DNA of 64,000 nucleotides from the NCBI GenBank assembly GCA_942490715.1, contig CALNYP010000047.1, forward strand, positions 4,744 through 68,743, in the 5' to 3' direction. Below the pieces are notes generated by a model that worked only from the letters and a program-made list of their open reading frames with translations, was not told the DNA's origin and ran no database searches. A program made the translations under genes and the position numbers. Origin of the DNA: an uncultured bacterium. GTDB lineage: Bacteria > Acidobacteriota > Polarisedimenticolia > Polarisedimenticolales > Polarisedimenticolaceae. Positions 1-33,260 of the stretch are shown piece by piece (within the stretch, counting starts at the first letter, position 1; every line of letters starts with the position of its first letter).

Positions 1-361
1 GCAATCCGACTGCGATTCCGTGGAGGATGCCATTCGTGCGGTGGAGATGTGTTCGACCGTGTGCGAGGACTGCCCGGCTACTACTACGTGCCCGGGACCA
101 TACTGCACCGATGGCGACGAGTTATCCTCGGTTGACAAAGCCATCGACCGATGCAAATTGCCGAGCGGTCAAATGTTCGAGTGTGATCTTGGCGACAACA
201 TCAACACCGTGACGTATGAGTGCGACCGCGATGCATGCTGTGAGCGGCTCGCCGCCCACGTGCATTTGCTGCGCCTCAGGAGCGACAAAGGTGGCACTGG
301 AATGCGAGGCGGCACAGACGGCCCTCTGCTTGGCGTACCCATGAACAACAGGAAGATACCC

Positions 362-1118
362 ATGAGAACAACCGCGATTTCCATTTCGTGTCTCGTGATG
401 ATGTTTCTCGCTGGCGGTTCCGCCTTCGCTGACTCACAGACTCATGATTGCTGCGATGCGGCGGCTCGCCCTCTCGATTGCCCGAACGGCGCCAGTTGCT
501 GCGAAGACACGACCTGGCAGTGTAACGATGAAGCCGGCTGGTCGACCTGCCCGGCAGATGGCACGGTCTGCTCGTGCGGGGGGATCAGGCGGCGGAACCT
601 GCGCCGAGGGGGAGTACTGCTTCCGAGAGAGCTTCGAGAGCCTCGACGATTGCTACCAGGTTGCCGACCTGGCAGGAGTATGCACGCTCACGACGCCAGA
701 CTGTTCGATGTGCAATATCACGTGCGGTTGCAACGGCATTACCTACCAGAACGCGTGCTCGGCGCAGGCAGTCACCGACCCGCACTTCTTCGGCGCCTGC
801 GGTTCGGAAGTCCGGGGCCTGAAGTTCGGGCACCCGTTGCACCCTACTTGGATGATATGGAGGCAGCAGGAGGACGCTCTCGCCTACAACGTCTACCGAA
901 AGGTGTACGAAGGAGTTCCTCCGACCGACCTTGGGTCATGTTTGCTGGCCAACTATTCACCGCAGGCGGCAATTCTGGACGACCCGGAACCAGGCGAGCT
1001 GTGGTTCCTGTCCGTAACTGCAGTGTACCCAACCGGGGAGGGGACCCCAGGCCGCCAGGGCGGTCCGCTGCCATGCGAACCCAAGGTGATCGCGGAGCGG
1101 TGCGGCGCCGGTTTGTAA
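362..1118 (+). pseudogene. Tandem copy 1 of the secreted Kazal-like / FN3-like-CTD protein gene, broken by a +1 frameshift near 587-590
   Basis: ATG at 362 gives MRTTAISISCLVMMFLAGG..., near-identical to copies 2 and 3 up to ...CSCGGI. Then 'atcaggcggcgga' replaces the 'atcgccggcgga' of the other copies (one extra nt). Homology continues in the frame of ORF 444..1118 (GGTCAEGEYC...CGCNGITYQNAC...AERCGAGL, stop TAA 1116-1118). Confidence 0.75.
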
Positions 1119-1148
1119 TGGGACAAACGGTACGCGAGGAGGACATCC

Positions 1149-1904
1149 ATGAGAGCAACCGCGATTTCCATTTCGTGTCTCGTGATGATGTTTCTCGCTG
1201 GCGGTGCCGCCATCGCCGAGTCACAGACTCATGATTGCTGCGATGCGGCAGCTCGCCCTCTCGATTGCCCGAACGGCGCCAGTTGCTGCGAAGACACGAC
1301 CTGGCAGTGTAACGATGAAGCCGGCTGGTCGACCTGCCCGGCAGATGGCACGGTCTGCTCGTGCGGGGGGATCGCCGGCGGAACCTGCGCCGAAGGAGAG
1401 TACTGCTACCGAGAGAGCTTCGAGAGCCTCGACGATTGCTACCAGGTTGCCGACCTGGCAGGAGTATGCACGCTCACGACGCCAGACTGTTCGATGTGCA
1501 ATATCACGTGCGGTTGCAACGGGATTACCTACCAGAACGCGTGCTCGGCGCAGGCAGTCACCGACCCGCACTTCTTCGGTGCCTGCGGTTCGGAGGTCCG
1601 GGGTGTGGTGTTCGGCAGCATCTTCCACCCGACGTCGATGGTCTGGAAGAGGCGAGATGGGGCACTGTCCTACAACGTGTATCGGAGAATCTACGATGGT
1701 ACTCCCCCGACCGACCTCGGCAAGTGCCTTGTTGCTGCTCACCCAGTGGGCGGGATCATCCTGGACGATCCAGGGCCAGGCGAGCTTTGGTTCCTGTCCG
1801 TAACTGCGGTGTACCCAACCGGGGAGGGGACTCCGGGCCGCCAGGGTGGTCCGCTGCCATGCATCCCCAAGGTGATCGCGGAGCGGTGCGGCGCCGGTTT
1901 GTAG
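1149..1904 (+). CDS. Secreted Cys-rich protein: signal peptide, Kazal-like domain, C-terminal FN3-like module (tandem copy 2)
   Basis: 251-aa ORF preceded by GAGGAGGA. N-terminal hydrophobic signal (MRATAISISCLVMMFLAGGAAIA). Motif C..C...CGCNGITYQNACSAQAV......GAC matches the bacterial Kazal-like pattern (VCGCDG.TY.N.C.A). The C-terminus has W....GALSYNVYR ... ELWFLSVTAVYPTGEGTPG. Confidence 0.85.
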   Translation: MRATAISISCLVMMFLAGGAAIAESQTHDCCDAAARPLDCPNGASCCEDTTWQCNDEAGWSTCPADGTVCSCGGIAGGTCAEGEYCYRESFESLDDCYQVADLAGVCTLTTPDCSMCNITCGCNGITYQNACSAQAVTDPHFFGACGSEVRGVVFGSIFHPTSMVWKRRDGALSYNVYRRIYDGTPPTDLGKCLVAAHPVGGIILDDPGPGELWFLSVTAVYPTGEGTPGRQGGPLPCIPKVIAERCGAGL

Positions 1905-1934
1905 TGGGACAAACGGTACGCGAGGAGGACATCC

Positions 1935-2684
1935 ATGAGAGCAACCGCGATTTCCATTTCGTGTCTCGTGATGATGTTTCTCGCTGGCGGTTCCGCCTTC
2001 GCTGACTCACAGACTCATGATTGCTGCGATGCGGCGGCTCGCCCTCTCGATTGCCCGAACGGCGCCAGTTGCTGCGAAGACACGACCTGGCAGTGTAACG
2101 ATGAAGCCGGCTGGTCGACCTGCCCGGCAGATGGAACCGCCTGCTCGTGCGGGGGGATCGCCGGCGGAACCTGCGCCGAAGGGGAGTACTGCTACCGTGA
2201 GAACTTCGAGAGCCTTGACGATTGCTACCAGGTTGCCGACCTGGCAGGAGTATGCACGCTCACGACGCCAGACTGTTCGATGTGCAATATCACGTGCGGT
2301 TGCAACGGCATTACCTACCAGAACGCGTGCTCGGCGCAGGCAGTCACCGACCCGCACTTCTTCGGTGCCTGCGGTTCGGAGGTCCGGGGTGTGGTGTTCG
2401 GGCACCCGTTGCACCCTACTTGGATGATATGGAGGCAGCAGGAGGACGCTCTCGCCTACAACGTCTACCGAAAGGTGTACGAAGGAGTTCCTCCGACCGA
2501 CCTTGGGTCATGTTTGCTGGCCAACTATTCACCGCAGGCGGCGATTCTGGACGACCCGGAACCAGGCGAACTGTGGTTCCTGTCCGTAACTGCGGTGTAC
2601 CCAACCGGGGAGGGAGCCCCGGGCCGCCAGGGTGGCCCACTGCCATGCATACCCAAGGTGATCGCGGACCGGTGCGACGAGTAA
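1935..2684 (+). CDS. Secreted Cys-rich protein: signal peptide, Kazal-like domain, C-terminal FN3-like module (tandem copy 3)
   Basis: 249-aa ORF. The 30-nt spacer and SD upstream are identical to those before copy 2. Domain order matches copy 2. Only the last residues differ (ADRCDE versus AERCGAGL). Confidence 0.85.
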   Translation: MRATAISISCLVMMFLAGGSAFADSQTHDCCDAAARPLDCPNGASCCEDTTWQCNDEAGWSTCPADGTACSCGGIAGGTCAEGEYCYRENFESLDDCYQVADLAGVCTLTTPDCSMCNITCGCNGITYQNACSAQAVTDPHFFGACGSEVRGVVFGHPLHPTWMIWRQQEDALAYNVYRKVYEGVPPTDLGSCLLANYSPQAAILDDPEPGELWFLSVTAVYPTGEGAPGRQGGPLPCIPKVIADRCDE

Positions 2685-2712
2685 TGGTTTCAGCCGCGCC
2701 GTCTACAACGCT

Positions 2713-3945
2713 TCAGCCGGAACCGGAGACCGGTGCGGTCCAGGGCGCGAAACGACTGACGGCGAACACCGCCACGCCACAGGCGCCGATCGCCGCACCG
2801 CATAACAGGGTCGCCTCGACCGACCAGACCGCCAGCACGCCGCCGGCGATGGCGATGACGGCGTTGCCGATCGAGAACAGCGATACGGTCAACCCCATCA
2901 CCTTGCCCTGCTCCGTCGGACCGACGTGGTTCGAGACGTAGACCGCGATGTGGGTCGACGTCATCGCGATGAAGATCCCGAACAGCGGAAAGGTGATCAG
3001 CAGAGAGGCCGACGAAGCCGGTAACGGCAGGGCGAACAGGACCGTCGTGAAACCGGTCAGGGCAACGAGGATGTTGGCCCGGGCGCTGAACCGCTTCGCG
3101 CTCCAGGGGACGATGACCAGGTTCGTCAGCACCATCATCCCGGTCATCAGCGCCGTCCGGGTGGCGATGACACCGCTGCCGAAGCCCCATTTCTTCACGA
3201 ACAGGTAGGGGTAGAACTCGTAGAACGTGTTCATCGCCATCGTCGCCAGGAAGTAGACGAGCAGCAAGCGGCGCACGGCAGGGTGGCGCAGCACGACCCA
3301 CGCGTTCAGCTTGGCGGCCAGGCTGGTCGCTGGAGCCGCGCCGGCTGCGGGATCCCGGATCTGCTCGCGAAAGAACAGATACGTCGCCAGCCAGGCGGAG
3401 AAGGTCAACCCGGCGGCGAAGACGAAGACCGCCTCGTAGGAGATCGCGGCGACCAGCCCGCCGAGCAGCGGCCCGACCAGCCAGCCGCCGGTCGTCGCCA
3501 CGCTGAGCATCCCGAACGAGCGAGCCTTGTCGACGGATCCCGTCATGTCCGCCGCCGCGGCACGGGCGATGGCGATGTTGCCCTCGAGGAGGCCGGTGAG
3601 GAAACGGCTGAGTACCAGCAGCGTGAAGTCCTCGATCAGGATCGCGTAGGCGCTCGCCCCGTACAGCACCGTCGACAGCGCGAGGGATCCGAGCAGGATC
3701 CGTCGGCGACCGAAGTTGTCGGACAGCGCTCCCAGGATCTGGCTCCCGAGAAACGTGCCGAAGGGATAGACCGCGATGACCCAGCCGAGCAGCACCTCCG
3801 GAGGGATGCCGCCGAACTGCGCGATCCGGCCGGCTCCCTCGCCGAGGAACAGCGGAGCCAGGACCGGATAGGGCATCGCGATCCCGGCCGTCGAGACGAA
3901 GACGACCAGGGCCAGGCTCAGCAGGATCGTGCGGTGGCGGACCAT
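2713..3945 (-). CDS. MFS transporter (drug/H+ antiporter-like)
   Basis: 410 aa and about 12 hydrophobic helices. MFS-type loop motif GALSDNFGRRRILL between TM2 and TM3. Confidence 0.85.
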   Translation of the reverse strand: MVRHRTILLSLALVVFVSTAGIAMPYPVLAPLFLGEGAGRIAQFGGIPPEVLLGWVIAVYPFGTFLGSQILGALSDNFGRRRILLGSLALSTVLYGASAYAILIEDFTLLVLSRFLTGLLEGNIAIARAAAADMTGSVDKARSFGMLSVATTGGWLVGPLLGGLVAAISYEAVFVFAAGLTFSAWLATYLFFREQIRDPAAGAAPATSLAAKLNAWVVLRHPAVRRLLLVYFLATMAMNTFYEFYPYLFVKKWGFGSGVIATRTALMTGMMVLTNLVIVPWSAKRFSARANILVALTGFTTVLFALPLPASSASLLITFPLFGIFIAMTSTHIAVYVSNHVGPTEQGKVMGLTVSLFSIGNAVIAIAGGVLAVWSVEATLLCGAAIGACGVAVFAVSRFAPWTAPVSGSG

Positions 3946-4972: not shown

Positions 4973-7630
4973 ATGCGTCTGATCATCGCCATCCCCCCGC
5001 TGCGGCTGCCCCGGCTCCCCTGGCCCGGGAAGGGCCGGAAAGCCCGTTCCGGCTCCGCTGGACTCGGTCGCCTGGTCCGCCCGCACCGCGCCGCCCTGGC
5101 CGGGGTGGCCGGGTTCGCCGTCCTCGCCGGAGGGTTCGGAGCCACCGCCGGCTACTTCGTCCGGCTGGACATGCCGAGCCTGACGGGACTGGCCGACTAC
5201 CAGCCGCCGGAGATGACCCGGATCCGCGCCCGGGACGGCTCGGAGATCGCCAACTTCGCCTCGGAGAAGCGCCTCTCCCTGGGTTACGGACAGATCCCCC
5301 AGAGCTTCCGAGACGCGCTGATCGCCAGCGAGGACTCGCGCTTTGCCGAGCACGCCGGCATCGACGTCTTCGGGATCGGCCGCGCCCTGCTACGGGATCT
5401 CCAGCAGATGGAGATGACCGAGGGCGCCAGCACGTTGACGATGCAGCTCGCCGGCAACCTCTACCTGGATCGCTCCCAGCGCACCGTGCGGCGCAAGCTC
5501 CAGGAGGCGTTCCTGGCGATGGAGATCGAGCGTCGCTACTCCAAGCAGGAGATCCTGCGCTTCTACACCAATCAGGTTCACTTCGGCCACGGCCTCTACG
5601 GCCTCGAGGCCGCGGCACAGCACTTCTTCGGCAAGACGGCACCCCGGCTGTCCCTCGGCGAGTCGGCGACGCTGGTCGGCCTACTGCCCCGGCCGGCGGG
5701 CTACTCGCCGCTGGTCAACCTCGGGCGCGCGACCGAGCGCCGGAACCTCGTGTTGCGCCGGATGGTCGACGAGGGATACCTGACCGCCGCCGATTTCGAG
5801 AGAGAGCGCGAACTGCCGCTCCTCGTGGCCGACCAGGACGACCAGGACACGATGGCGCCACACTTCACCGAGGAGGTCCGCCGGCATCTTCAGGAGAGCT
5901 ACGGCACCGGCGAGCTGTACCGCGGTGGACTGGTCGTCGAGACGACCCTCGATCCCGAGCTGCAGCGCAGCGCCGAGCGCGCCGTCGATTTCGGCCTGCG
6001 GGCGCTGGACAAGCGCCAGGGCTGGCGCAGGGAGGCGATCCGCCGCATCCCGGCGGAGCTGACCCCGGAGACCTGGGACTCGCCGGCATGGAACGCCGGC
6101 ATCCGCACCGGCGACGTGACCGACGGCATCGTCGTCTCGGTCACCCCCGATCAGGCGGTGGTCCGGGTCGGCAGCCGCCGGGGCCTGCTGACCCGCGAGT
6201 CGATCGCCTGGACCGGTCGCACCCGGGTCGACCGGCTGGTCGAGGCCGGCGACGTGATCCACGTCGGGATCGAGCGCTCGGAGACCGACCGGGTCGAGCT
6301 GACCCTCGAGCAACGGCCGACGGTGGAAGCCGCGCTGGTCGCCATCGATCCGCGAACCGGCGAGGTGCTGGCGATGGTCGGCGGCGCCGACTTCTCCCGC
6401 AGCGAGTTCAACCGCGTGACCCAGGCCCGGCGGCAACCCGGTTCGCTGTTCAAGCCGTTCATCTACGCGGCGGCGTTCGAAAAGGGCTGGACCCTCGCCG
6501 ACCGGATGCTCGACGAACCGACGGTGTTCCTCGAAGGACGGCGGGCGATCCCCTACCAGCCCGAGAACTTCAGCCGCAACTACTACGAGACGATCACGCT
6601 GCGCACCGCGCTGGAGAAGTCGGCGAACATCGCGACCGTCAAGCTGCTGCGCGAGGTCGGCTACGACTCGGTGATCGAGACCACTCGCCAGCTCGGAGTC
6701 ACGAGCCGCTTGCGACCCTATCCCTCGCTGGCCCTGGGCGTGTTCGAGGTCAGTCTGCTCGAGGTGACCAGCGCCTACGGAACCTTCGTCAACGAAGGGT
6801 TGCGGATGGAGCCGCACTGGGTGCGGGAGATCCGGGACCGCACCGGCGCCACGCTGTTCGCCTCGGAACCCAAGGTCCAGTCCGCACTGTCCCGGGAGGT
6901 CGCGCATCTCGTGACCGCGGCCCTGGAGGGTGTCATCGAACGCGGCACCGGCAAGACGGCGAAGTCGGCGCTGGGCCGGACGCTGGCCGGCAAGACCGGC
7001 ACCACCGACAACTACACCGATGCGTGGTTCGTCGGGTACTCGTCGGATCTGGTGGTCGGCGTCTGGGTCGGATTCGACGACCCGAAGTCGCTGGGCACCG
7101 TGGAGACCGGCGGTCGCGCGGCGTTACCGATCTGGATCGAGTTCATGCGCGACGCCCTGGAGCCTCGCCCCGACCGGCGCTTCCGCTCGCCCGCCGGAAC
7201 GACCCGGGTGCGGATCGACCCGTTCACCGGTCTCCGTCCTGCGGCGGAGTCCGACTGTGTCGGCACGATCGTCGAGACGTTCCGGGACGGGACCGAGCCG
7301 ACCGCCTTCTGCTCGAAGGAACAGCATCGGCTGCTGCGGATGCCCTACCCGTTCCAGCGCTATTCGATCGACTCCCGCGGATCGCTGGCGATCCCCGGCA
7401 ACGAGCTGATCGCACTGCTCGACAGCGAACCCCGGGTCGAGGTGAGTCGTGACGGGCGACTACGGCATACCGACGTCGACGGCAACGTGACCGAGCTGCG
7501 ACTGGCGGTGCTCCCCGACCGCGACGCGGAGACCGTCGTGCCCGACGACCCCGAACTCGACCCGAGCTCCTGGCGCGGCACCGATGGTCGAATGGCGCAG
7601 ATCGTCTGGTTCGGCCGGCCCGGGGGCTGA
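4973..7630 (+). CDS. mrcA: Class A penicillin-binding protein (bifunctional transglycosylase/transpeptidase, PBP1A type)
   Basis: 885 aa with an N-terminal TM anchor. GT51 motifs (EDSRFAEHAGID, GASTLTMQL, RKLQE). Transpeptidase motifs (SLFKP = SxxK, KTGTT). Confidence 0.9.
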   Translation: MRLIIAIPPLRLPRLPWPGKGRKARSGSAGLGRLVRPHRAALAGVAGFAVLAGGFGATAGYFVRLDMPSLTGLADYQPPEMTRIRARDGSEIANFASEKRLSLGYGQIPQSFRDALIASEDSRFAEHAGIDVFGIGRALLRDLQQMEMTEGASTLTMQLAGNLYLDRSQRTVRRKLQEAFLAMEIERRYSKQEILRFYTNQVHFGHGLYGLEAAAQHFFGKTAPRLSLGESATLVGLLPRPAGYSPLVNLGRATERRNLVLRRMVDEGYLTAADFERERELPLLVADQDDQDTMAPHFTEEVRRHLQESYGTGELYRGGLVVETTLDPELQRSAERAVDFGLRALDKRQGWRREAIRRIPAELTPETWDSPAWNAGIRTGDVTDGIVVSVTPDQAVVRVGSRRGLLTRESIAWTGRTRVDRLVEAGDVIHVGIERSETDRVELTLEQRPTVEAALVAIDPRTGEVLAMVGGADFSRSEFNRVTQARRQPGSLFKPFIYAAAFEKGWTLADRMLDEPTVFLEGRRAIPYQPENFSRNYYETITLRTALEKSANIATVKLLREVGYDSVIETTRQLGVTSRLRPYPSLALGVFEVSLLEVTSAYGTFVNEGLRMEPHWVREIRDRTGATLFASEPKVQSALSREVAHLVTAALEGVIERGTGKTAKSALGRTLAGKTGTTDNYTDAWFVGYSSDLVVGVWVGFDDPKSLGTVETGGRAALPIWIEFMRDALEPRPDRRFRSPAGTTRVRIDPFTGLRPAAESDCVGTIVETFRDGTEPTAFCSKEQHRLLRMPYPFQRYSIDSRGSLAIPGNELIALLDSEPRVEVSRDGRLRHTDVDGNVTELRLAVLPDRDAETVVPDDPELDPSSWRGTDGRMAQIVWFGRPGG

Positions 7631-10554: not shown

Positions 10555-11698
10555 CTGCGCCGAGGTCGAAGTGCCGGGCCAGGCCGTCGGCCACGGCGAG
10601 GCCCTCCAGGGTCGGGACGATCCGGTCGCCCTCGACCTCGATTTGCCCCTGGCTCGTGAGGGTCTCGAGCAACGGCCCGTTGGACGCGAGCAGATCGATC
10701 CCCCAGCGCGACCGGACTGCCGCCGTGTCGACACCGGCATAGGTTCGCAGGCCGGTCATCAACGCCTCGAGCACCAGATCCTCGGCGGCGAGGGTCTCGC
10801 GCTCCTCGATCGCCGACTCCCCCGCCGCCACCCGTTCCTGCCAGGGGTCGGTGCGGCGCAGGTTCCACCAGCGGGCGTCGTCCCGGTAGGAGTGGGCCGA
10901 GGGGCCGAGGCCGAGGTAGGGCGTGTGGGCCCAGTACTTCATGTTGTGCCGGGAGCGATGCCGCGGCTCCCGGGCGAACTGCGACACCTCGTACCCCGCC
11001 AGGCCCTGGGCCGCCAGCTCGTCGTGGGTCACCCGGAAGAACCGGCCCTGCTCCTCGTCGGGCAGCTCGGTCAACTTGCCGCGATCGCGCAACAGCGAGA
11101 AGCGCGTCCTGTCGTAGACCGTCAACTGATAACAGGAGATGTGCTGGACCGGCGCCGCGGCACCGAGGGCCAGCTGCCGGCGCCAGTGCGCCAGCTCCTG
11201 ACCCGGCAGGCCGTAGATCAGATCGATCGACAGCGTGTCGAAGCCGACCGCCGCCGCCTGCTCGATCGCCCTCCGGCCGGCGCGGCCGTCGTGGCGCCGG
11301 CCCAGGAAGGCCAGCGCATCATCGTCAAAGGTCTGGATGCCGAGGCTGAGCGTCGCCACACCCAGGTCACGCCATTCCTGGAGTCGCCCCGGATGCACAT
11401 CTTCCGGATTGGCCTCCAGGAACAGCCGGGTATCGGCAGCGACGTCGAAGTGCGTCCGGATGGCGGTGAGAATCCGCTCCAGATCGCCGGGCTCGAGGAG
11501 CGACGGCGTGCCGCCACCGAAGTAGATCGTGTCGAAGCGCCAGTCGTCCCCGGCCTGCTGCTCGATCTCCAGCAACAGGTGGTCGACGTAGCGCCGACGA
11601 CGAGCGGCGTCGCCGGTGCGCACGGCGAAGTCGCAGTAGGGGCAGACGCGGGAGCAGAACGGAACGTGGAGGTAGAGGCCGGCGGGCGCCTGGCTCAA
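10544..11698 (-). CDS. hemW: Radical SAM family heme chaperone HemW (oxygen-independent coproporphyrinogen oxidase-like)
   Basis: 384 aa. LYLHVPFCSRVCPYCDF carries the CxxxCxxC radical-SAM cluster motif, and an HemN_C-like C-terminus follows. There is a 4-nt overlap with lepA upstream, the conserved lepA-hemW order. Confidence 0.85.
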   Translation of the reverse strand: MSQAPAGLYLHVPFCSRVCPYCDFAVRTGDAARRRRYVDHLLLEIEQQAGDDWRFDTIYFGGGTPSLLEPGDLERILTAIRTHFDVAADTRLFLEANPEDVHPGRLQEWRDLGVATLSLGIQTFDDDALAFLGRRHDGRAGRRAIEQAAAVGFDTLSIDLIYGLPGQELAHWRRQLALGAAAPVQHISCYQLTVYDRTRFSLLRDRGKLTELPDEEQGRFFRVTHDELAAQGLAGYEVSQFAREPRHRSRHNMKYWAHTPYLGLGPSAHSYRDDARWWNLRRTDPWQERVAAGESAIEERETLAAEDLVLEALMTGLRTYAGVDTAAVRSRWGIDLLASNGPLLETLTSQGQIEVEGDRIVPTLEGLAVADGLARHFDLGAASA

Positions 11699-13491
11699 GA
11701 GCGATCCGTCTTCAGCACGGCGACGAAGGCGGACTGGGGAATGTCGACGGCGCCGACCGTCTTCATCCGCTTCTTGCCTTCCTTCTGCTTGTCCAGCAGC
11801 TTGCGCTTGCGGCTGATGTCACCGCCGTAGCACTTGGCGGTGACGTCCTTGCGCAGGGCGCTGATGTTGGTGCGGGCGATGATGCTCCCGCCGATCGCGC
11901 CCTGGATCGCGATCTTGAACTGCTGCTTGGGGATCGTGTCGGCGAGCCGCTCGCAGTAGTGCATGGCGCGGCTGCGCGCCTTGTCCCGGTGGGTCAGCTG
12001 GGACAGCGCGTCGACCTGTTCGGCGTTGACGAGGATGTCGACCTTGACCAGATCGGTCGGACGGTAGTCCAGCACCTCGTAGTCGAACGAGCCGTAGCCC
12101 TGGGTCAGCGACTTCAACCGGTCGTAGAAATCGAACAGCACCTCGGCCAGCGGCAGCTCCGCCGTGACCTCGACGCGACCCTGAGCCAGGTAGTTGATCT
12201 GGGCGTTGAGCCCCCGCCGGTCGAGGCAGAGCTCCATCACGCCGCCGATGTACCGCTCGGGGATCAGCACCGAGGCCTTGATGTAGGGCTCCTCGGTCGA
12301 GGCGATCGTGCTCGGATCGGGGTAGTAGGTCGGGTTGTCGACCCAGGTCTCCTCGCCGTTCTCCAGCATCACCTTGTAGCGCACCGATGGCGCCGAGAGC
12401 AGCAGCGACAGGTCGTACTCGCGTTCGAGCCGCTCCTGGACGACCTCGAGGTGCAACAGCCCCAGGAAGCCGCAGCGGAAGCCGTGGCCCAGCGCCGCCG
12501 ACGAGTCCTTCTCGAACGTCAGCGACGCGTCGTTGAGCACGAGCTTGTCCAGCGCCTTGACCAGCTCCTGGTAATCGTCGGTCGACATCGGATAGATCGA
12601 CGAGAAGACGACCGACTTGGCCACGGTGTAGCCGGGCAACGGAGCCTCGGCCCGGGCCGCCGAGTCGGTGATCGTGTCGCCGACGGCCACGTCCCGCACC
12701 GCCTTGATCCCGGCCAGCACGTAGCCCACGTCGCCGGCGACGAGCTGCTTCGTCGGGAAGCGGCTCAGCCGCAGCTGTCCGACCTCCTCGACGTTGTGCT
12801 CCTTGCCGGTGTTCATCAAGCGCAGCTTCATCCCGGCGCGCAGCCGTCCCTGCTTGACCCGGACCATCAACACCACGCCGCGGTAGGCGTCGTACTGGGC
12901 GTCGAACAGCAACGCCTGCAGCCGGGCATCGGGGTCGCCCTGGGGCGGCGGGAGCTTCGTGACGATCGCCTCGAGGACGTCCTCGATGCCAGCGCCGGTC
13001 TTCGCCGAGCAGGGAACCGCGGCGGTGGCGTCGAGTCCGAGGTCGCTATCGATCTCGTCGGAGACCCGGTCGATGTCCGCCGCCGGCAGGTCGATCTTGT
13101 TGATCACCGGCACCATCTCGAGGTCGAACTCGAGGGCCAGGTACATGTTGGCGACGGTCTGGGCCTCGACGCCCTGGGAGGCGTCGATCAGCAGCAACGC
13201 CCCGTCACAGGACATCAGCGACCGGCGCACCTCGTGGGAGAAGTCGACGTGTCCCGGAGTGTCGATCAGGTTGAGCGTGTAGGTCTCACCGTCGCGGGCC
13301 TTGTAGTCCAGGGTGACGGTGTTGCTCTTGATCGTGATCCCGCGCTCGCGCTCGATGTCCATCGAGTCCAGCAGCTGATCGCGGAATTTGCGGGCGTCGA
13401 CGCCGCCACAGTGCTGGATCAACCGGTCGGCGAGGGTCGACTTGCCGTGGTCGATGTGGGCGATGATGCAGAAGTTGCGGGTCCTGTCCAC
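11695..13491 (-). CDS. lepA: Translation elongation factor 4 (LepA)
   Basis: 598 aa with GTPase motifs AHIDHGKST, DTPGH and NKID. LepA-specific C-terminal domain (...YGGDISRKRKLLDKQKEGKKRMK). Confidence 0.97.
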   Translation of the reverse strand: MDRTRNFCIIAHIDHGKSTLADRLIQHCGGVDARKFRDQLLDSMDIERERGITIKSNTVTLDYKARDGETYTLNLIDTPGHVDFSHEVRRSLMSCDGALLLIDASQGVEAQTVANMYLALEFDLEMVPVINKIDLPAADIDRVSDEIDSDLGLDATAAVPCSAKTGAGIEDVLEAIVTKLPPPQGDPDARLQALLFDAQYDAYRGVVLMVRVKQGRLRAGMKLRLMNTGKEHNVEEVGQLRLSRFPTKQLVAGDVGYVLAGIKAVRDVAVGDTITDSAARAEAPLPGYTVAKSVVFSSIYPMSTDDYQELVKALDKLVLNDASLTFEKDSSAALGHGFRCGFLGLLHLEVVQERLEREYDLSLLLSAPSVRYKVMLENGEETWVDNPTYYPDPSTIASTEEPYIKASVLIPERYIGGVMELCLDRRGLNAQINYLAQGRVEVTAELPLAEVLFDFYDRLKSLTQGYGSFDYEVLDYRPTDLVKVDILVNAEQVDALSQLTHRDKARSRAMHYCERLADTIPKQQFKIAIQGAIGGSIIARTNISALRKDVTAKCYGGDISRKRKLLDKQKEGKKRMKTVGAVDIPQSAFVAVLKTDRS

Positions 13492-13548
13492 GGGGTTCCT
13501 CGGGTCGCGCGAGAGCGGCGAATCCCCGTGGAATCTAGCACGAGCCCA

Positions 13549-14022
13549 TCAGTTCTGCAGGCCGGCGGGCCACTGGGCGAACTGGCCGTCGAAGATGACG
13601 ATATCGGCGTTGACGCTGTGGGTCTCGCCCCCTTCGCCGTCGTTCCCGTCGTCGAGACCGTCCTTGCCCAGCGACCAGAGGATGTATTCGGCGGCGTCCG
13701 CGGCCGGATCCAGCCTGGCGTAGAGCATCGCGTTGCCCCAGGCGTCCTCGGTGGCCACCGTGTGGATGTAGGTCGGCGTCAACTCGTCGATCAACGGCTC
13801 GGTCGTGCCGGTCGAGTCCGGATAGTTGCCGTGGTCGACGGCGTAGGCCTGGAGAGCGGTGGCGATCGCGCGCAGCTCGGTCATCGTGCGCTTCTGCTTG
13901 CCCCGGTCGAGGGCGGTGAGCAGGTTGGGGATCGTGATCGAGGCCAGGATCGAGATCACCATCACCACGATCATCAGCTCGAGCAGCGTGAATCCGTCGG
14001 CACGATCCAGGCGATATCGCAC
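13549..14022 (-). CDS. GspG-like pseudopilin (prepilin-type N-terminal cleavage/methylation domain)
   Basis: N-terminal G|FTLLELMIVVMVISILA prepilin motif. GspG-like core (LQAYAVDHGNYP, DAWGN, SLGKDG). No other T2SS or pilus genes are nearby. Confidence 0.8.
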   Translation of the reverse strand: MRYRLDRADGFTLLELMIVVMVISILASITIPNLLTALDRGKQKRTMTELRAIATALQAYAVDHGNYPDSTGTTEPLIDELTPTYIHTVATEDAWGNAMLYARLDPAADAAEYILWSLGKDGLDDGNDGEGGETHSVNADIVIFDGQFAQWPAGLQN

Positions 14023-21392: not shown

Positions 21393-23207
21393 CTAGTTCG
21401 ACCCCACCACCGGCAGTGAGACCCGCGACGGGTACTTTTTCGAATGATAGATCCGGTTGTGGGCCACGACGCCCTCGGACTCGTCGTGATTCGCACCGCC
21501 GGTGTTCAGGTTCCTGGCGAAGCGCGGGAAGTTGCTGCTCGAGATCTCGACGCGGATCCGATGTCCGGCCGGGAAGTAGTTGCTGGTGACCATCGGGCTG
21601 AGGGTCAACGGGTAGACCTCGCCCGGTTTCATGAATACCTGCTTGTCGTAGCCCTCGCGGTAGCGGGCGCGCTGGATCGTCTCGTCGAGGTTGTACGCCG
21701 TTCCGTCGGGGGAGACGTCGATCAGCTTGACCGAGAAATCGGTGTCCTTCGCGTCGGAGCCGACGAACAGCTCGACCTCGATGAAGCCGCTGACCTCGAT
21801 CGCCTGCTCGAGCGGGGGCGAGGTGTAGACCAGGATGTCCCGCCGGGTCTCCTGCTCGCTCTGGTCGAACGACCCCCGGGCATCGACCGCTCCGCCGATG
21901 CAGCAGACACCGCCGCCCGAGGGACGGAACCGGCCGCCGTGGATCGTAGGTGAAGCCATCGAACCGCGGCCTTGCGCGGCTTTGCCGGCGACTCAGTCTG
22001 CCGTCGCCGAACAGACTGTTGGCGCCGGCATCGCTGTCCAGGTACCAACTGTGCATCGCGGTCGAACCCTGGGGCGGCCAACGGTCGGCGACTCGACCCA
22101 GCGGTTCGCGCCCATCAGGTAGTAACGGATCTTGGGATTCTCCTGCTCGAACGCTTGTTCATCGTCGGCCAGCCAGCGATCGAAGAACCCGTAGAGCAGC
22201 TTGTCGTAGTCCAGTCGGACATCGCCCATGTTGCGCTCGCCGACGATCGTCTCGCTCTCGGTCTGGAAGAACCTGCAGTGGGGCGTCGGGGCGACGATCG
22301 CGTACTGGTTGTTCGCGACCTCGGGATCGCCGGCGTTGTCGGTCACGTGGTTGAACAGCGCCAGGTTCGGGCCGATCGACACGTCGTACCAGGAGTTCAT
22401 CCAGAACGCCGGCACGCCGTATGTCCTCGTCGTCGTGGTACAGACCGCCCGTCGTACCAGGCCGGGTCGTCGGGGGTTGACGTGCGGATGAACTCGTCGT
22501 AGATCCCCTTCGGGCCGTCGACGTTCTTCATCAGGTCACCCAGGGGCAGGTGACGGATCGCCTTGACCCAGTCGACCTCGGGCATCTCCGGCGCCAGATC
22601 GAAGTAGTTCGACAGTCGGACCCGATCCTCGCGCGTCAGGCCCGCCGGCAACGACGGACGCTGGGTGTTCTGCACCTTGTAGAGCCAGGGGCCGAAGAAC
22701 ATCTGATCGACGCCGCCGCGGTACCAGTTGCCCTGCTCCCAGTACTCACCGACCTTACCGATGCCCGCGCCCGGCGCCATCGGGATCATCGCTGCGTGCG
22801 CCGGGTGGTCCATCGCCGCCAATGCCAGCTGCCACTCGGCCGAGGAGGAACAGCCGATCGTGCCGACCTTGCCGTTGGACCAATCCTGCCCCTCGATCCA
22901 GTTCAGTGCGTCGTACCCGTCGGTGCGCGGAAAACCGAGGATCTCCCACTCACCTTCCGAGAAGTACTTGCCGCGCTCGTTCTGGATCACGAAGGCAAAG
23001 CCACGCTGCAACGCCTCGTGGAGCAACAGCAGGCGCGATGTCGCGCATCGGCACGAGGATCTTCTTTTCCACGGTCGAGAGCTCTTCGACCTTTTCCAGC
23101 AGCTTCTTCTTCGACTCGTCGTCGAATGCGGCACTGATCGGGAGCAGCGGGAGCAGCAGGGCTGCCACCGCGAAGACGAGCAGAGTACGTCGCAGGCGCT
23201 GGGGCAT
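21393..23207 (-). pseudogene. CocE/NonD (X-Pro dipeptidyl-peptidase S15) family hydrolase, degraded
   Basis: Homology is split over at least five reading-frame segments. These are signal peptide + ...VPMRD (from 23207), FAFVIQNERGKYFSEGEW...GCSSSAEW, TYGVPAFWMNSWYD..., WPPQGSTAMHSWYLDSDAGANSL...[12 protein letters not shown] and [17 protein letters not shown]...RVSLPVV. Shifts lie near 22447, 22424, 22080 and 21915. An internal deletion of roughly 40-60 codons lies near 23035. Confidence 0.8.
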
Positions 23208-23372
23208 GGGATTCCTCGAGTCGCCTGGCGACGCGGGCGGGCCGTCGATCGGCCACCGGATGTACGCAGGAACTCAGCAGTGGGGCCCAGGAGTGTCGGA
23301 GGGCCCCGCGAGAAGCGGGACCCGGGCAGTCGGCGTGCGGCCAGCCCGGGCATGTGCAGGCTACCGGGTAAC

Positions 23373-26105: not shown

Positions 26106-27281
26106 GTGCTGCGTAGGCAAATCCCACTGCTGGTCTTGACCCTGACGATTCTCGCATCGTCGGCCCCGGGGATCCTCGCCCAGAAAACACAGCCGACCCA
26201 GTTCGTCACTCCGGACACGACGACGTTCACGATCTCCACCGGACTGCTGCTGCCCTGGGAGACCAAGAAGCACCGCGCCGGTACCTACGGTCCCGGGGCC
26301 GAGCTGATCCTCGACGACGGTGCGACCTCCAGCATCAAGATCGACGGGCTGCACAAGCTCGACAACCCCGGACAGTGGCTGTTCACGATGGCCACCGCCA
26401 GCGACCTCGACGGTCTGCTTCCGGAGCTGGCCGACCGTAACGACATCCTGCGCTACGACGGGGCCAGCGGTTTCACGAAGGTGTTCTGCGGCAGCACCAC
26501 CACGGATCCGGTCCCGCCGCGCTGCAACATCGACGCCGTCTATCTCGTCGGCGATGACGACAGCGACATCGTCGTCAGTTTCGACCAGTGCGGTGCAACG
26601 ATCCGGGGTGAGACCTACGAGGCCGCCGACCTGGTCCAGTTCACCCGCAGTGACCCGACCGACTGCAACGGCTGGAGCGTGGCAGGACTCGTCTTCGATG
26701 CCTCGGGCAAGATCCCCAGCAGCACCAACGTGATCGGAGCGTCCCGGGCGGGCAATCAGCTCATCCTGTCCCTCGACGTGGCCACCCACGTTCCGACCAA
26801 GGCCGGCTCGACGCAGTTCATCCCCGGCCAGCTCGTGCGCTGGGACGGGACCTTCTTCAGTCTGTACGAGAACCTGCCGGGCTGGCCGCAGAGCACCCAG
26901 GTCAACGCCCTGACCCTGCCCTCCGAGACGTGTCGCGGACTCGACGACGCCGACCCCGGCGACAGGATCGTCGATCTCTGCACCCGGGCCTGGACATCGG
27001 ACAGCGGGGGCCGGTTCGATAGCCTCGAGTGGCGGGTCGAGGCCGGCGCGCTGGCGTACAACGTCTATCGCAGCAACCTCAACGGAGCCGTCTTCGGTTG
27101 TCAGACACCGGAGCCCTTCGTCGATCGCCAGTACGTCACACCGGAGCTCCCCCCGAGCGATTCGGCCTTCTACTACCTCGTCACCGTGATCGACGGGATG
27201 GGCGAGGGTTCCCTGGGGAATGCATCGAGCGGCGCAGAGCGAACCAACTCTGCCCCATGTGGCGGCGGAACGGCACATTGA
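26106..27281 (+). CDS. Secreted uncharacterized repeat protein ending in the shared FN3-like C-terminal module
   Basis: GTG start 11 nt after the barrel gene. Signal peptide MLRRQIPLLVLTLTILASSAPGILAQ. Internal repeats (..DILRYDGASGF.., ..DLVQFTRSD.., ..QLVRWDGTFF..). C-terminus WRVEAGALAYNVYR...C...PPSDSAFYYLVTVIDGMGEGSLG...C. Confidence 0.7.
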   Translation: MLRRQIPLLVLTLTILASSAPGILAQKTQPTQFVTPDTTTFTISTGLLLPWETKKHRAGTYGPGAELILDDGATSSIKIDGLHKLDNPGQWLFTMATASDLDGLLPELADRNDILRYDGASGFTKVFCGSTTTDPVPPRCNIDAVYLVGDDDSDIVVSFDQCGATIRGETYEAADLVQFTRSDPTDCNGWSVAGLVFDASGKIPSSTNVIGASRAGNQLILSLDVATHVPTKAGSTQFIPGQLVRWDGTFFSLYENLPGWPQSTQVNALTLPSETCRGLDDADPGDRIVDLCTRAWTSDSGGRFDSLEWRVEAGALAYNVYRSNLNGAVFGCQTPEPFVDRQYVTPELPPSDSAFYYLVTVIDGMGEGSLGNASSGAERTNSAPCGGGTAH

Positions 27282-30200
27282 TCTCCGCGCCACGGTCCGC
27301 ACGTCGGGCCGCCCTGGGGATCGCGCTGCTGTGCGCGGCTCCGTCGTACTCTTCGCGCTCGATCCCTGCCGCGAACTCCTCGCTGACAACCGGACGGCTC
27401 TCGGCCTCCTTCACCGCTGACGGCGTCGAGATCCGGCCCTCGGGAGAGACTCCCGGCGACCAGTGGCAACTGCGAATCGACGGCTTCCGGCCCGGGGTGC
27501 TCGGCGAGGCCGGGGTCGTGATGCCGTCACTACCCGATGGCGATGGAACCTCCGTCGCGTACCGGCGACGGGAGGGCACCGAGAGCTGGAGCGCGACCCG
27601 GGAGGGACTCTCCGTACGGCTGGATCCCCGACTTCACGACGATCGATCCGGCTGGATCCTCGGCGTGCACACCGAGCTCGAGCTCCGGGATGTCACCGGC
27701 GGCGTCGCCTTCCTGCATCGAGGCCGACCGGTCGTCTCGTTGCGATCGGCCGACGACGGCTGGCGTGTCGGACTCTCGTCGTCACCAGCGCTGACTCCGG
27801 GTCGCCGATCCGTCGAGGTCTCCCCGGTGGGTTCGAGGGGCAGTACCTCGCCGACCCTGCAGCTGCGCGCCCTGGGCAGCGACACCGCACTGGCGGACGA
27901 GGTCCTGGCGACGGTGCCCCACTGGATCGTCGAGAGCAACCGCTCCGCGGCGACCTTCGGCGCGGCGGTCGCCACCGTGGGCGACGTGAACGGTGACGGC
28001 TACAGCGACGTCGTCGTCGGCTCCCCCACGTTCGCGTCGGGCGAACTCGACGAGGGGCGTGCGTTTCTCTATCGCGGATCGGCCGACGGTCTGTCGACCG
28101 CACCTTCGTGGACGATCGAGAGCAACGTCGTCGGCGCCCGCCTCGGTAGCGCCGTGGCCCCGGCGGGCGACGTCAACGGCGACGGCTACGCCGATTTCCT
28201 CGTAGCGGCCGACGCACTCTCCGCAGAAGTGACCAACGGCGGACGGGTGCTCCTGTTTCTCGGTTCCGCCGATGGCCCATCGACGACACCGGACTGGACC
28301 GCCGACGGCAGCCAGCAGGGTGAGCGGTTCGGCAGCTCCATCGCCCCTGCCGGCGACGTCGACGGCGACGGCTATGACGACGTGATCGTCGGCGCGCCGT
28401 TCCACGACGGCACGGTCGCCGACGAGGGACGGGCGGTGCTCTACCTTGGATCGCCGGCCGGCCTGGAAGTCACCGCTGCCTGGTCCGTCCTCGGAGCGCA
28501 GGACAACGCCCAGTTCGGCAGTGCCGTCGCCGGGGTCGGCGATCTCGACGGTGACGGCCACGCCGATGTCGCCGTCGGTGCGCCGGCGTTCAACGGCGTG
28601 TTCTTCGCCTCGGGCCGTGTATTCCTGTTTCGCGGGGCCGCCGATGGCCCCGCCGCCATGGCCGACTGGACCGCCGACGGCGACACGGTCTTCTCCTCCT
28701 TCGGCGCGGCGATCGCGCCGATCGGCGACGCCGGCGGCGACGGTCACGCCGATTTCGCGGTCGGTGCACCGACCGCGGGAACGACCGGCAAGGTTCACGT
28801 ATTCGTCGGCGCCGCAGGCGAGCCCCTCGCCGGTCCGGTGCTCGGCGGGCCGTCAGGCTCCGAACAGTTCGGTGCCACCGTCGCCACCGCCGGAGACGTC
28901 AACGGCGACGGCTACGCCGACCTGCTCGTCGGCGATCCGCTCTACGCCGACGGAGAGCTGGACGAGGGTGGTGCGTTCCTGTTCCTCGGTAGCGCAAACG
29001 GCCTCTCCACGGGAATGGCCTGGCAGGTGGAATCCGACGAGCCGAACGCCTCGTTCGGCGCCGCGGTCGGAACCGCCGGCGACGTCGACGGCGACGGCAG
29101 GAGCGACGTCATCATCGGCGCACCTCGTGCCGACAACGGCCAGGCCGACGAGGGGCGCGCCTTCTCCTACCTCGGCTCGACGACCCCGCCGGGGCGTGTC
29201 CCGGGCTGGGAGGCGACCGGGTTCTCCTTCGGCGAGCTGTTCGCCGGAGCGCTGGACTCGGCCGGCGACGTCAACGCCGACGGCTTCAGCGACGTGATCG
29301 TCGGAGCACCGTTCTACGCCGGTGGCCAGTCCGCCGAAGGGCGGGCGCTGGTCTACCTGGGTTCGAGCGAGGGGCTGGGAGCCGGGGCGCACTGGACCTT
29401 CGAACCGAACCTCCCCGTCGCCCTGGCCGGACGCTCGGTGGCCGGTGTCGGCGACGTCAACGGTGACGGCTACGCCGATGTGGCCGTCGGGGCTCCCAAC
29501 GTCAGCGGCACGCTGCCGGCTTCCGGACGGGTCTACCTGTTCCTCGGGCCGCTGGTCTCCGGTCAGGCACCGGACTGGCACGCCGACGGCTCGATCTCGA
29601 ACGGCGGATTCGGGCTGGCGATCAGCGGCGCGGGCGACGTCAACGGCGACGGCCTGGCCGACCTGTTGATCGGCGCGCCGGGACCGATCGAGGGGCAGCC
29701 GGCACGGGGTCGCGCCGAGCTTTACCTCGGCACCCACGATGGACTCGCGCAGACAGCGGCCTGGAGTTACGAGGGAAGCACGACCGTCTCGCGCTTCGGC
29801 AGCGCGGTCGCCTCGGCCGGCGACGTCAACGGCGACGGCTTCGGTGACGTCGTCATCGGCGCCCCGACGGTGGCGACCGAGTTGATTCGCGGCGAGGTGC
29901 TGCTGTTCCTGGGCTCCGTCGACGGCCTCTCCAGAGAGCCGGTCTGGCGCGCCGAATCGAGCCAGTCTCGATCGCTGTTCGGTTCGTCGGTCGCCGGAGC
30001 CGGCGACATCGACGGCGACGGTTTCAGCGACGTCGTCATCGGCGAGAACAACTTCAGCGGCGGCGAGCTGAGCGAGGGACGGGCCTCGCTTTACCTCGGC
30101 TCGCCGGCGGGTCTGTCCGGCACTCCGATCTGGGAGGTCGTCTCGGCCCAGGCCAACGCGCTGCTGGGAAGCGACGTCTCCGCGGCCGGCGACGTCGACG

Positions 30201-31576: not shown

Positions 31577-31595
31577 TCTCCGGCCGAGGGGCCCG

Positions 31596-33254: not shown

Positions 33255-33260
33255 ACCGGC

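What the first reader, a model, noticed from the sequence alone, without database searches (positions are those of the whole stretch)
359..2684. Three-copy tandem array of near-identical Kazal-like secreted protein genes
The gene-sized units start at 362, 1149 and 1935, a period of 786-787 bp, with identical 30-nt spacers that include the SD. Each encodes a signal peptide, a Cys-rich region, a Kazal-like core (CGCNGITYQNACSAQAV...GAC) and the shared C-terminal module. Kazal domains are classical serine-protease inhibitors and are uncommon in bacteria. A recently amplified or homogenised three-copy array suggests dosage selection or an arms race. The window is also unusually rich in secreted peptidases (C14, C25, M1, M14, M90 and an S15 remnant).
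Basis: partly seen in the sequence, partly recalled or inferred. Interest (0 to 1): 0.65.

Follow-up and report, generated by a model that had tools for sequence, protein, structure and literature searches.

The report
Tandem divergent bacterial Kazal-like exported genes
A sediment bacterium carries three head-to-tail copies (one frame-shifted as assembled) of a gene for an exported, cysteine-rich protein whose middle part is a divergent Kazal/follistatin-type domain, so it is probably a protease-binding protein of a known kind, though an unusual and uncharacterised variant.

Summary
The three-unit array is real: ATGs at 362, 1149 and 1935, period 787/786 bp, and two identical 30-nt spacers carrying GAGGAGGA. 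As assembled, copy 1 has a +1 frameshift at 587. Copy 2 carries a strongly diverged 160-nt patch. The copies evolve under purifying selection (dN/dS 0.2-0.3), and the Kazal loop is identical in all three, so an arms race is not supported.

The proteins hit no Pfam Kazal model. A full scan of 1.84 billion proteins found 141 relatives, and 62 of the 80 scanned carry Pfam Kazal_1 (7 carry Kunitz/BPTI). A family profile matches ovomucoid (2.9e-13), rhodniin and follistatin domains in the PDB.

Each protein has a signal peptide, an undescribed 8-Cys N module, a 10-Cys follistatin-type Kazal module and an FN3-like C-terminal module.

In relatives, a Cys at loop position P2' covaries perfectly with a Cys in the FN3-like module (33 C/C, 5 non-C/non-C). 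This predicts an inter-domain disulfide. The window's loop is also one residue shorter than canonical.

The best reading is an exported Kazal-lineage protease-binding protein, but inhibition is unproven. The peptidase genes found in the window are at least 11 kb away, and none is S1 or S8.

The parts
2..344 (+). 3' end of an upstream Cys-rich ORF (16 Cys in 113 aa) of unknown family. As assembled it reads through into copy 1.
   Evidence: Translation is. An X2 contig of 2742 nt lacks one base at 245. With that base removed the ORF stops at TGA 342-344, 17 nt before the copy 1 ATG. It has no similarity to the K-F family by phmmer.
362..1118 (+). Copy 1 of the array. It has a +1 frameshift at 587 and is split into 362-586 and 588-1118. 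It is either a recent pseudogene or an assembly error.
   Evidence: Once corrected, the product is 94-97% identical to copy 3. The run contigs show only the unshifted majority form here.
1119..1148 (+). Inter-unit spacer 1, with the Shine-Dalgarno-like sequence GAGGAGGA at 1136-1143.
   Evidence: It is identical to 1905-1934. Contigs in X1 confirm the junction from unit end through the spacer to the next unit start.
1149..1904 (+). Copy 2, an intact 251-aa precursor.
   Evidence: dN/dS against copy 3 is 0.26.
1616..1775 (+). Diverged patch of copy 2 (unit nt 468-627, aa about 157-209), covering the first half of the FN3-like module.
   Evidence: In codons 151-210, dS is 1.6-1.9 and dN is 0.34-0.37 (omega about 0.2), against dS 0.07-0.27 in the rest. 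An X2 contig carries this 157-nt variant.
1905..1934 (+). Inter-unit spacer 2, identical to spacer 1.
1935..2684 (+). Copy 3, an intact 249-aa precursor. Its 3' end is the end of the array. It is convergent with the MFS transporter gene at 2713-3945(-).
   Evidence: An X1 contig covers 2621-3063 with 0 mismatches.
1935..2003 (+). Signal peptide of copy 3 (aa 1-23, MRATAISISCLVMMFLAGGSAFA, with an AFA|D cleavage site).
   Evidence: Read from the sequence. No signal-peptide predictor was available. Relatives have similar N-termini.
2013..2150 (+). N module (aa 27-72), an 8-Cys unit of the form CCDx..P..CxxGxxCCxxxxWxCNDxxGxSTCxxxGxxC.
   Evidence: Alignment A7. It occurs 1-8 times in 13 relatives. 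It has no Pfam hit and no PDB hit at E<=10.
2148..2375 (+). K module (aa 72-147), a 10-Cys follistatin-type Kazal domain with one extra Cys.
   Evidence: In the AF2 model the secondary-structure elements fall in a strand-strand-helix-strand order, at TCG, TY, ACSAQAV and HFF.
2274..2297 (+). Presumptive reactive-site loop, C114-S-M-C117-N-I-T-C121. It is one residue shorter than the canonical C2-x7-C3. C117 is predicted to pair with C238.
2376..2681 (+). F module (aa 148-249), an FN3-like beta-sandwich with Cys193, Cys238 and Cys247.
   Evidence: The AF2 K-F model has pLDDT 83 and pTM 0.70, with blocks of 90-96 in this module. The top Foldseek PDB hits are all FN3 domains, with probability about 1.0, E 0.02-0.4 and TMt 0.5-0.6. 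Profile hits also fall on poly-FN3-like proteins such as P0024.

Best explanation
The locus is a tandem triplication of one gene. Copy 1 is frame-shifted in this assembly. The gene encodes a Sec-exported protein with 11 predicted disulfides, built from three modules:
1. An undescribed 8-Cys N module.
2. A divergent follistatin-type Kazal module (MEROPS I1 lineage).
3. An FN3-like C-terminal module.

The Kazal loop Cys117 is predicted to be disulfide-bonded to Cys238 of the FN3-like module.

The most likely function is tight binding of a serine protease in the periplasm or outside the cell, by presenting the loop between Cys114 and Cys121 as a substrate-like inhibitor (the standard Laskowski mechanism). 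The FN3-like module would act either as a rigidifying clamp or as an exosite.

The array arose by unequal crossing-over. Gene conversion has kept it homogeneous, except for one patch in the FN3-like module of copy 2. All copies are under purifying selection.

Shown: the array, the module architecture, homology to Kazal-bearing proteins, purifying selection and the Cys covariation. Inferred: export, the C117-C238 disulfide, protease inhibition and the identity of the target.
For: - Array and boundaries.
- Coding constraint: dN/dS is 0.2-0.3 in every pair and every segment.
- Family size: 141 relatives at E<=1e-3 among 1.84 billion representatives.
- Family content: of 80 relatives scanned, 62 hit Pfam Kazal_1, 55 hit Kazal_2 and 7 hit Kunitz_BPTI. 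The module therefore travels with a second, unrelated serine-protease-inhibitor domain, and it also forms poly-Kazal chains of up to 10 units.
- Membership of the window proteins: a relatives-only profile hits them at 44 bits (K module) and 120 bits (K-F pair).
- Link to solved inhibitors: the K profile hits ovomucoid at 2.9e-13, rhodniin at 7.6e-11, silk protease inhibitor 2 at 2.8e-10, and LDTI and PSTI. It also hits follistatin FS domains over the whole module, at 6e-4 to 1.5e-3.
- Conserved Kazal features in the window: the P3 Cys, C-G-x-N-G-x-T-Y-x-N-x-C, and the final G-x-C.
- Inhibitor-like variation in the family: the P1 column has the highest entropy of the module (3.41 bits). P2 is Pro or Thr, and P2' is Tyr or Phe in untethered members, as in ovomucoid third domain ACTLEYRPLCG.
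- Structure: AF2 of the K-F pair gives pLDDT 83 and pTM 0.70, with Kazal-like secondary-structure order and an FN3-like sandwich.
- Tether: the loop Cys and the F-module Cys covary. There are 33 C/C, 5 (Y or F)/G and 0 discordant cases.
Against: - There is no direct Pfam Kazal hit for the window proteins, even at E<=10.
- The window's loop has only two residues between the P3 Cys and the tethering Cys (C-S-M-C). It has three in 20 of the 22 relatives matched (20 of 21 tethered ones), four in P0018, and also three in the closest same-architecture relative, P0005. The canonical P3-P3' geometry may therefore be lost.
- The P-V that precedes C3 in relatives is replaced by I-T.
- A bulky domain tethered at or next to P2' could block docking into a protease cleft.
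- The canonical fifth Kazal Cys (C4+3) is absent from the whole family. A Cys at C3+2 takes its place.
- Many eukaryotic Kazal/FS domains (follistatin, SPARC, IGFBP7-type) are not inhibitors. This point rests on general knowledge and was not tested here.
- No protease gene is adjacent, either here or in two relatives' loci.
- The five non-Cys/non-Cys cases all carry Kunitz tails and may represent a single evolutionary event.
- The AF2 coordinates could not be inspected, so the C117-C238 distance is unverified.
Confidence: 0.5

Rival explanations
1. The protein is a non-inhibitory binding or scaffold protein. The Kazal/follistatin-type module is only a rigid disulfide knot clamped to the FN3-like module. 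The protein binds some other ligand (a surface, a polysaccharide or another protein), as follistatin, SPARC or agrin FS domains do.
For: - The loop is shortened and contains a Cys predicted to be tied to the F module.
- The whole K module matches follistatin FS domains.
- The window proteins fall below the Pfam Kazal thresholds.
- No protease neighbour is seen.
- The part that differs between paralogues is the FN3-like module, not the loop.
Against: - Relatives fuse the same K-F unit to Kunitz/BPTI domains and to canonical-looking Kazal repeats.
- P1 is hypervariable in the family, as it is in true inhibitors.
- The Asn and Tyr that brace the Kazal reactive loop are conserved.
Confidence: 0.3
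2. The copy number, the copy 1 frameshift, or both, are assembly artefacts. The real locus has 2 or more than 3 copies, or three intact copies.
For: - Only low-depth (3-10x) short-contig data are available.
- The repeat is collapsed in both runs, and its depth ratio to the flanks is only about 1.5-2.8.
- Contigs across 587 show only the unshifted form.
- A second indel disagreement lies 340 nt away, at 245. Only 3 low-depth indel differences were seen in the next 20 kb.
Against: - Both array boundaries, the head-to-tail junction and both F-module variants are present in independent runs.
- The collapsed contig equals the 2-of-3 majority base at almost every variable site it covers (unit positions 102 and 249 are exceptions). 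That is what bubble-popping of three copies would give.
- The 587 change is complex (GC to AGG), not a homopolymer slip.
Confidence: 0.2
3. The array is the product of an arms race or diversifying selection on an inhibitor.
For: There are multiple paralogues, one with a strongly diverged segment.
Against: - Omega is 0.09-0.46 in every segment.
- The diverged patch has saturated dS with omega about 0.2, which indicates old or imported sequence under constraint.
- The loop is identical in all copies.
Confidence: 0.05
4. The Kazal resemblance is a chance cysteine pattern, and the proteins are unrelated to Kazal domains.
For: No Pfam or PDB hit is obtained with the window sequences alone.
Against: Searches give a significant chain of homology, with the aligned motif CGCxGxTYxNxC.
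Confidence: 0.03

Closest known systems
Kazal-type serine protease inhibitors (MEROPS I1; Pfam Kazal_1 PF00050 and Kazal_2 PF07648), for example ovomucoid third domain, rhodniin and LDTI
   Same: - The core motif C-G-x-[DN]-G-x-T-Y-x-N-x-C ... G-x-C is shared.
- The P3 Cys is present.
- The predicted secondary-structure order is strand-strand-helix-strand.
- The family profile hits these PDB chains at 1e-13 to 1e-5.
- P1 is hypervariable in the family.
   Different: - The window proteins fail the Pfam models.
- The canonical fifth Cys is missing, and a Cys sits at C3+2 instead.
- The loop is one residue shorter and carries an extra Cys.
- The module is preceded by a 4-Cys subdomain and followed by an FN3-like domain.
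- No activity data exist.
Follistatin (FS) domain: an N-terminal EGF-like hairpin plus a Kazal subdomain, with 10 Cys (follistatin, FSTL1, agrin, SPARC)
   Same: - The K module is about 70 aa with 10 conserved Cys.
- The family profile aligns over the whole FS domain: 2arp_F at 5.7e-4, 2b0u_C at 1.2e-3, 1lr7_A at 1.4e-3 and FSTL1 at 1.5e-3.
   Different: - The E-values are marginal.
- Cys spacing differs in the C-terminal half.
- The host is bacterial.
- FS domains are mostly ligand binders rather than inhibitors (general knowledge).
Uncharacterised metagenomic K-F proteins found here, for example P0005 (280 aa, same SP-N-K-F architecture), P0003 (N x8, K x2, F, Kunitz x2) and P0009 (K, F, Kunitz x4)
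   Same: - They share the modules in the same order.
- They share the covarying Cys pair.
- E-values to the window profile range from 1e-52 to 1e-10.
   Different: - Identity is only 30-57%.
- They are single-copy in the loci I could read, sitting next to an ECF sigma factor gene or an IS3 transposase gene.
- All but one of the tethered relatives keep the canonical loop length.
- Many carry extra Kazal or Kunitz domains.
Vertebrate IGFBP7/KAZALD1-type proteins (Cys-rich N domain, Kazal, Ig-like domain)
   Same: The order of modules is analogous: a Cys-rich N module, then Kazal, then a beta-sandwich. This is recalled from general knowledge, not tested here.
   Different: There is no detectable sequence relation for the N or C modules, so this is an analogy only.

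Membership tests
Kazal domain (Pfam PF00050/PF07648; MEROPS I1) | The sequence scores above the gathering threshold of a curated Kazal model. | tested here: not met
   There is no Kazal hit at E<=1 for whole proteins or at E<=10 for the isolated module.
Kazal domain (Pfam PF00050/PF07648; MEROPS I1) | There is significant profile-level homology to bona fide Kazal domains. | tested here: met
   A relatives-only profile scores the window at 44 bits (E=2e-6 at Z=1.8e9). Of 80 relatives, 62 hit Kazal_1. The family profile hits ovomucoid at 2.9e-13 and rhodniin at 7.6e-11.
Kazal domain (Pfam PF00050/PF07648; MEROPS I1) | The core motif C3-G-x-[DN]-G-x-T-Y-x-N-x-C4 and a terminal G-x-C6 are present. 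| tested here: met
   The window reads C121-G-C-N-G-I-T-Y-Q-N-A-C132 ... G-A-C146.
Kazal domain (Pfam PF00050/PF07648; MEROPS I1) | The six-Cys framework with 1-5, 2-4 and 3-6 disulfides is present. | tested here: inconclusive
   Equivalents of C2, C3, C4 and C6 are present. The canonical C5 (C4+3) is absent in the window and in its relatives, and an invariant Cys at C3+2 is present instead. Disulfide connectivity is not determinable here.
Kazal domain (Pfam PF00050/PF07648; MEROPS I1) | The reactive-site loop has canonical length (C2-x7-C3), with P1 two residues after C2. | tested here: not met
   The window has C114-SMCNIT-C121 (x6), with a Cys inside the loop. Most relatives have x7.
Kazal domain (Pfam PF00050/PF07648; MEROPS I1) | The Kazal fold is present (three-stranded sheet plus one helix). 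| tested here: inconclusive
   The AF2 secondary-structure order fits, with pLDDT 76-85 in this part.
Kazal domain (Pfam PF00050/PF07648; MEROPS I1) | The protein inhibits a serine protease by the standard mechanism. | not testable with these tools
   This needs biochemistry.
Follistatin-type (FS) domain | The module is about 70 aa with 10 Cys: an N-terminal hairpin subdomain followed by a Kazal subdomain. | tested here: inconclusive
   The module has 10 invariant Cys. The profile aligns over whole FS domains, but only at E 6e-4 to 1.5e-3.
Fibronectin type III-like domain (C-terminal module) | A seven-stranded beta-sandwich of about 90-100 aa resembling FN3. | tested here: met
   AF2 pLDDT is 90-96 over this module. 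The top Foldseek PDB hits shown are nearly all FN3 or FN3-like domains, with probability 0.9-1.0 and TMt 0.5-0.6, although E is only 0.02-0.4. There is no Pfam fn3 hit.
Tandem paralogue array homogenised by gene conversion | Head-to-tail units whose similarity is mosaic rather than uniform, extending into non-coding spacers. | tested here: met
   The spacers are identical. dS is 0.07-0.27 over most of the unit, against 1.6-1.9 in one 160-nt patch. The site patterns are 1=3 at 75 sites, 1=2 at 12 and 2=3 at 15.

The most novel reading that the evidence does not exclude
The K-F pair would be a distinct, undescribed type of 'clamped' Kazal domain. Its reactive-site loop (position P2', or P1' in the window's shortened loop) would be covalently tied to an FN3-like domain. 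Together with the undescribed 8-Cys N repeat, it would form a bacterial extracellular protein family whose mode of action differs from free-loop Kazal inhibitors. One possibility is a two-surface protease trap; another is a non-protease ligand binder.
Probability: 0.3. Interest if true: 0.55.

Novelty: new variant of a known kind. Interest (0 to 1): 0.35.

Why it matters
I found no literature on the function of bacterial Kazal-domain proteins in three searches. This locus belongs to a small family, seen almost only in metagenomes, that combines Kazal, Kunitz, FN3-like and a new Cys-rich repeat.

If the predicted loop-to-FN3 disulfide is real, it gives a testable structural variation on one of the best-studied inhibitor scaffolds. 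The N module would be a new disulfide-rich fold family.

The tandem array itself is ordinary paralogue amplification with gene conversion. Nothing here shows a link to a particular protease or to an arms race.

Tried and rejected
- Pfam and NCBIfam scans of the whole proteins and of each module gave no relevant hit.
- The word-indexed homologue search with copy 3 returned only self hits.
- A PDB profile search with the window copies alone gave only a spurious beta-galacturonidase hit at E=0.26.
- AF2 on the 4-row self alignment gave pLDDT 29 and was unusable.
- Looking up the window's own contig, and relative P0005, by exact protein found nothing on record.
- Two scans of GTDB representative genomes and one scan of JGI metagenomes found no relative ([error], 48, 51, 52). 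Copy number in related strains and taxonomy of carriers could therefore not be compared. These scans use a few peptide patterns, so they are weak negatives.
- tblastn of the modules against the rest of the window found no further copies.
- Promoter and terminator scans found no sigma-70-like promoter. They found only weak 5-bp hairpins inside the 3' ends of copies 1 and 2, at chance level.
- A hevein or chitin-binding reading of the N module (the CCxxGxWxC motif) was considered. It has no Pfam or PDB support.
- Three literature searches for characterised bacterial Kazal proteins found nothing relevant.
- The organism's taxonomy was not determined. Neighbouring genes indicate only a high-GC (68%) diderm bacterium from sediment.
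Full report
**Observation**

The region 350-2684 holds three head-to-tail units. ORFs start at ATG 362, 1149 and 1935, with spacings of 787 and 786 bp. The two inter-unit spacers (1119-1148 and 1905-1934) are identical 30-mers, with GAGGAGGA 5-6 nt before the ATG.

Copies 2 and 3 are intact (251 and 249 aa). Copy 1 carries ATCAGGCGG where the others have ATC-GCCGG. This +1 frameshift at 587 splits it into 362-586 and 588-1118. The public gene call for it is a 136-aa fragment (P0002).

Copy 1 has its own upstream sequence with a weaker SD-like site. Copy 3 has its own 3' end, which lies 28 nt from the stop of a convergent MFS transporter gene.

**Is the array real?**

Two sediment-metagenome runs hold the locus, but only as low-depth short contigs. 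These contigs independently show:
- the left boundary (a 2742-nt contig reaching position 398);
- the right boundary (2621-3063, 0 mismatches);
- the unit-end to spacer to unit-start junction (two contigs overlapping on the 30-nt spacer);
- both variants of the C-terminal module.

The collapsed shared segment equals the 2-of-3 majority base at almost every variable site it covers (unit positions 102 and 249 are exceptions). Its word depth is 10.2 and 7.5, against about 3.5-5.5 in the flanks. Tandem repetition of at least two copies is therefore certain. Three copies is compatible but not proven.

The frameshift cannot be checked, because contigs drop minority variants. One further indel disagreement lies at 245. 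The following 20 kb show only three low-depth indel differences. The assembly around the array is thus a little less reliable than elsewhere.

**Evolution of the copies**

dN/dS is 0.2-0.3 for every pair and every segment, so the frame is a real coding frame under purifying selection.

Divergence is mosaic. dS is 0.07-0.27 over most of the unit but 1.6-1.9 in codons 151-210 of copy 2 (window 1616-1775), where omega is still about 0.2. This pattern points to gene conversion homogenising most of the unit. The patch is either older sequence or sequence imported from elsewhere.

The presumptive reactive loop CSMCNITC is identical in all copies. This does not support an arms race.

The array (GC 61-63%, GC3 0.68-0.76) and the upstream ORF (GC 59%) are compositionally atypical. 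Neighbouring genes have GC3 of 0.83-0.95.

**What the protein is**

On their own, the window proteins hit nothing in Pfam, NCBIfam or the PDB. The word-indexed search returned only self hits.

An exhaustive HMMER scan of 1.84 billion representatives found 141 relatives at E<=1e-3. These relatives reveal three modules:
- **N module** (aa 27-72, 8 Cys). It is repeated up to 8 times in 13 relatives. It has no Pfam or PDB relative.
- **K module** (aa 72-147). It has 10 invariant Cys.
- **F module** (aa 148-249).

The architectures seen in relatives are SP-N(n)-K(n)-F, sometimes followed by Kunitz domains, and plain poly-K chains. The window protein is the minimal SP-N-K-F form, shared with P0005.

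**Kazal test**

- Of 80 relatives scanned, 62 hit Pfam Kazal_1, 55 hit Kazal_2 and 7 hit Kunitz_BPTI.
- A K-module profile matches PDB Kazal inhibitors: ovomucoid at 2.9e-13, rhodniin at 7.6e-11, silk protease inhibitor 2 at 2.8e-10, and LDTI and PSTI. Over its whole length it also matches follistatin FS domains, at 6e-4 to 1.5e-3.
- Profiles built without the window sequences still score the window proteins at 44 bits (K) and 120 bits (K-F). These give E=2e-6 and 7e-30 at a 1.8-billion search space.
- The window keeps C-G-C-N-G-I-T-Y-Q-N-A-C ... G-A-C, including the Tyr and Asn typical of Kazal domains.
- In the family, the column equivalent to P1 has the highest entropy of the module. P2 is Pro or Thr, and P2' is Tyr or Phe in many members, much like ovomucoid third domain.

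The Kazal assignment therefore holds at the level of homology, although the curated models miss these particular sequences.

**Departures from canonical Kazal**

The whole family lacks the canonical fifth Cys and has an invariant Cys two residues after C3.

In K modules that directly precede an F module, position P2' is usually Cys. This covaries perfectly with a Cys in the F-module tail (motif ..C..R.P...C). The counts are 33 Cys/Cys, 5 (Tyr or Phe)/Gly and none discordant. The five exceptions all carry Kunitz tails and may be a single event. Even so, the pattern predicts an inter-domain disulfide, C117-C238 in the window numbering.

That pairing also balances the Cys count. The N module has 8 Cys and the K and F modules together have 14, giving 22 in the mature protein.

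The window's loop is also one residue shorter than in relatives (C-S-M-C against C-x3-C), and the otherwise near-invariant P-V before C3 is I-T.

**Structure**

AF2 of the K-F pair, using a 28-row alignment, gave pLDDT 83 and pTM 0.70. Strands fall at TCG and TY, a helix starts at A62 (right after the conserved Asn), and a strand precedes the last Cys. A well-predicted beta-sandwich follows.

Foldseek against the PDB returned FN3 domains for the sandwich, with probability about 1.0, TMt 0.5-0.6 and E 0.02-0.4.

**Context**

The immediate neighbours are an MFS transporter, DoxX, a DksA/TraR zinc-finger protein and PBP1A.

All are at least 11 kb away. They are not co-oriented in an operon with the array, and none is S1 or S8. 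M14 was not seen in the ORFs I scanned.

Relatives sit as single genes, next to an ECF sigma factor gene or an IS3 transposase gene. No close relative was found in GTDB representative genomes or JGI metagenomes by pattern scans.

**Verdict**

The Kazal interpretation is right in lineage but unproven in function. The arms-race reading and the link to local peptidases are not supported.

The most likely function is an exported Kazal-lineage protease-binding protein (about 0.5). A non-inhibitory scaffold or binding role is the main rival (about 0.3).

The interesting residue of this finding is the predicted loop-to-FN3 disulfide clamp and the undescribed 8-Cys N repeat.

Noticed in passing
window 2-344 (+), especially position 245: The upstream ORF is the C-terminal part of another Cys-rich protein (16 Cys in 113 aa) of unknown family. 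As assembled it reads through into copy 1. An independent contig lacks one base at 245, and the ORF then stops at TGA 342-344, 17 nt before the copy 1 ATG. This is a likely indel error or a strain variant.
   Followed up: partly
window 2013-2150 (and the equivalent parts of copies 1 and 2); relatives P0003, P0004, P0008, P0028: This is an 8-Cys module of 45-51 aa (CCDP..P...C.EG..CC..G.W.CND..G.STC...G..C). It has no Pfam or PDB match and is repeated up to 8 times in a handful of metagenomic proteins. It appears to be an undescribed disulfide-rich repeat.
   Followed up: partly
window 1-2700 compared with 2700-64000: The array and the upstream ORF have GC of 59-63% and GC3 of 0.68-0.76. Neighbouring genes have GC of about 68% and GC3 of 0.83-0.95. 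This may be a compositionally foreign island that extends beyond the left edge of the window.
   Followed up: no
relatives P0003, P0009, P0026, P0013, P0006 (not in the window): The same K-F unit is fused to 1-4 C-terminal Kunitz/BPTI domains. These proteins therefore combine two unrelated serine-protease-inhibitor folds. In most of them (not P0003) the K-F unit lacks the covarying Cys pair.
   Followed up: partly
window 4973-7630 (+): This class A penicillin-binding protein (transglycosylase plus transpeptidase) has a Pfam S1 RNA-binding-domain hit (E 8.6e-7) between its two catalytic domains. The hit probably reflects an OB-fold insert.
   Followed up: no
window 22397-23353 (-): This Peptidase_S15 ORF is only 318 aa and covers profile positions 27-211 of 262.
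   Followed up: no
window 31533-36797: A caspase-like C14 peptidase gene (+) and a large C25 (gingipain-type) peptidase gene (-) are convergent neighbours. They lie next to a 1515-aa FG-GAP repeat protein gene (27029-31576).
   Followed up: no
window 11671-13671: Contig word depth in both runs jumps to about 50-130x over parts of the lepA region, against about 5x elsewhere. Conserved sequence shared with other community members probably explains this.
   Followed up: no
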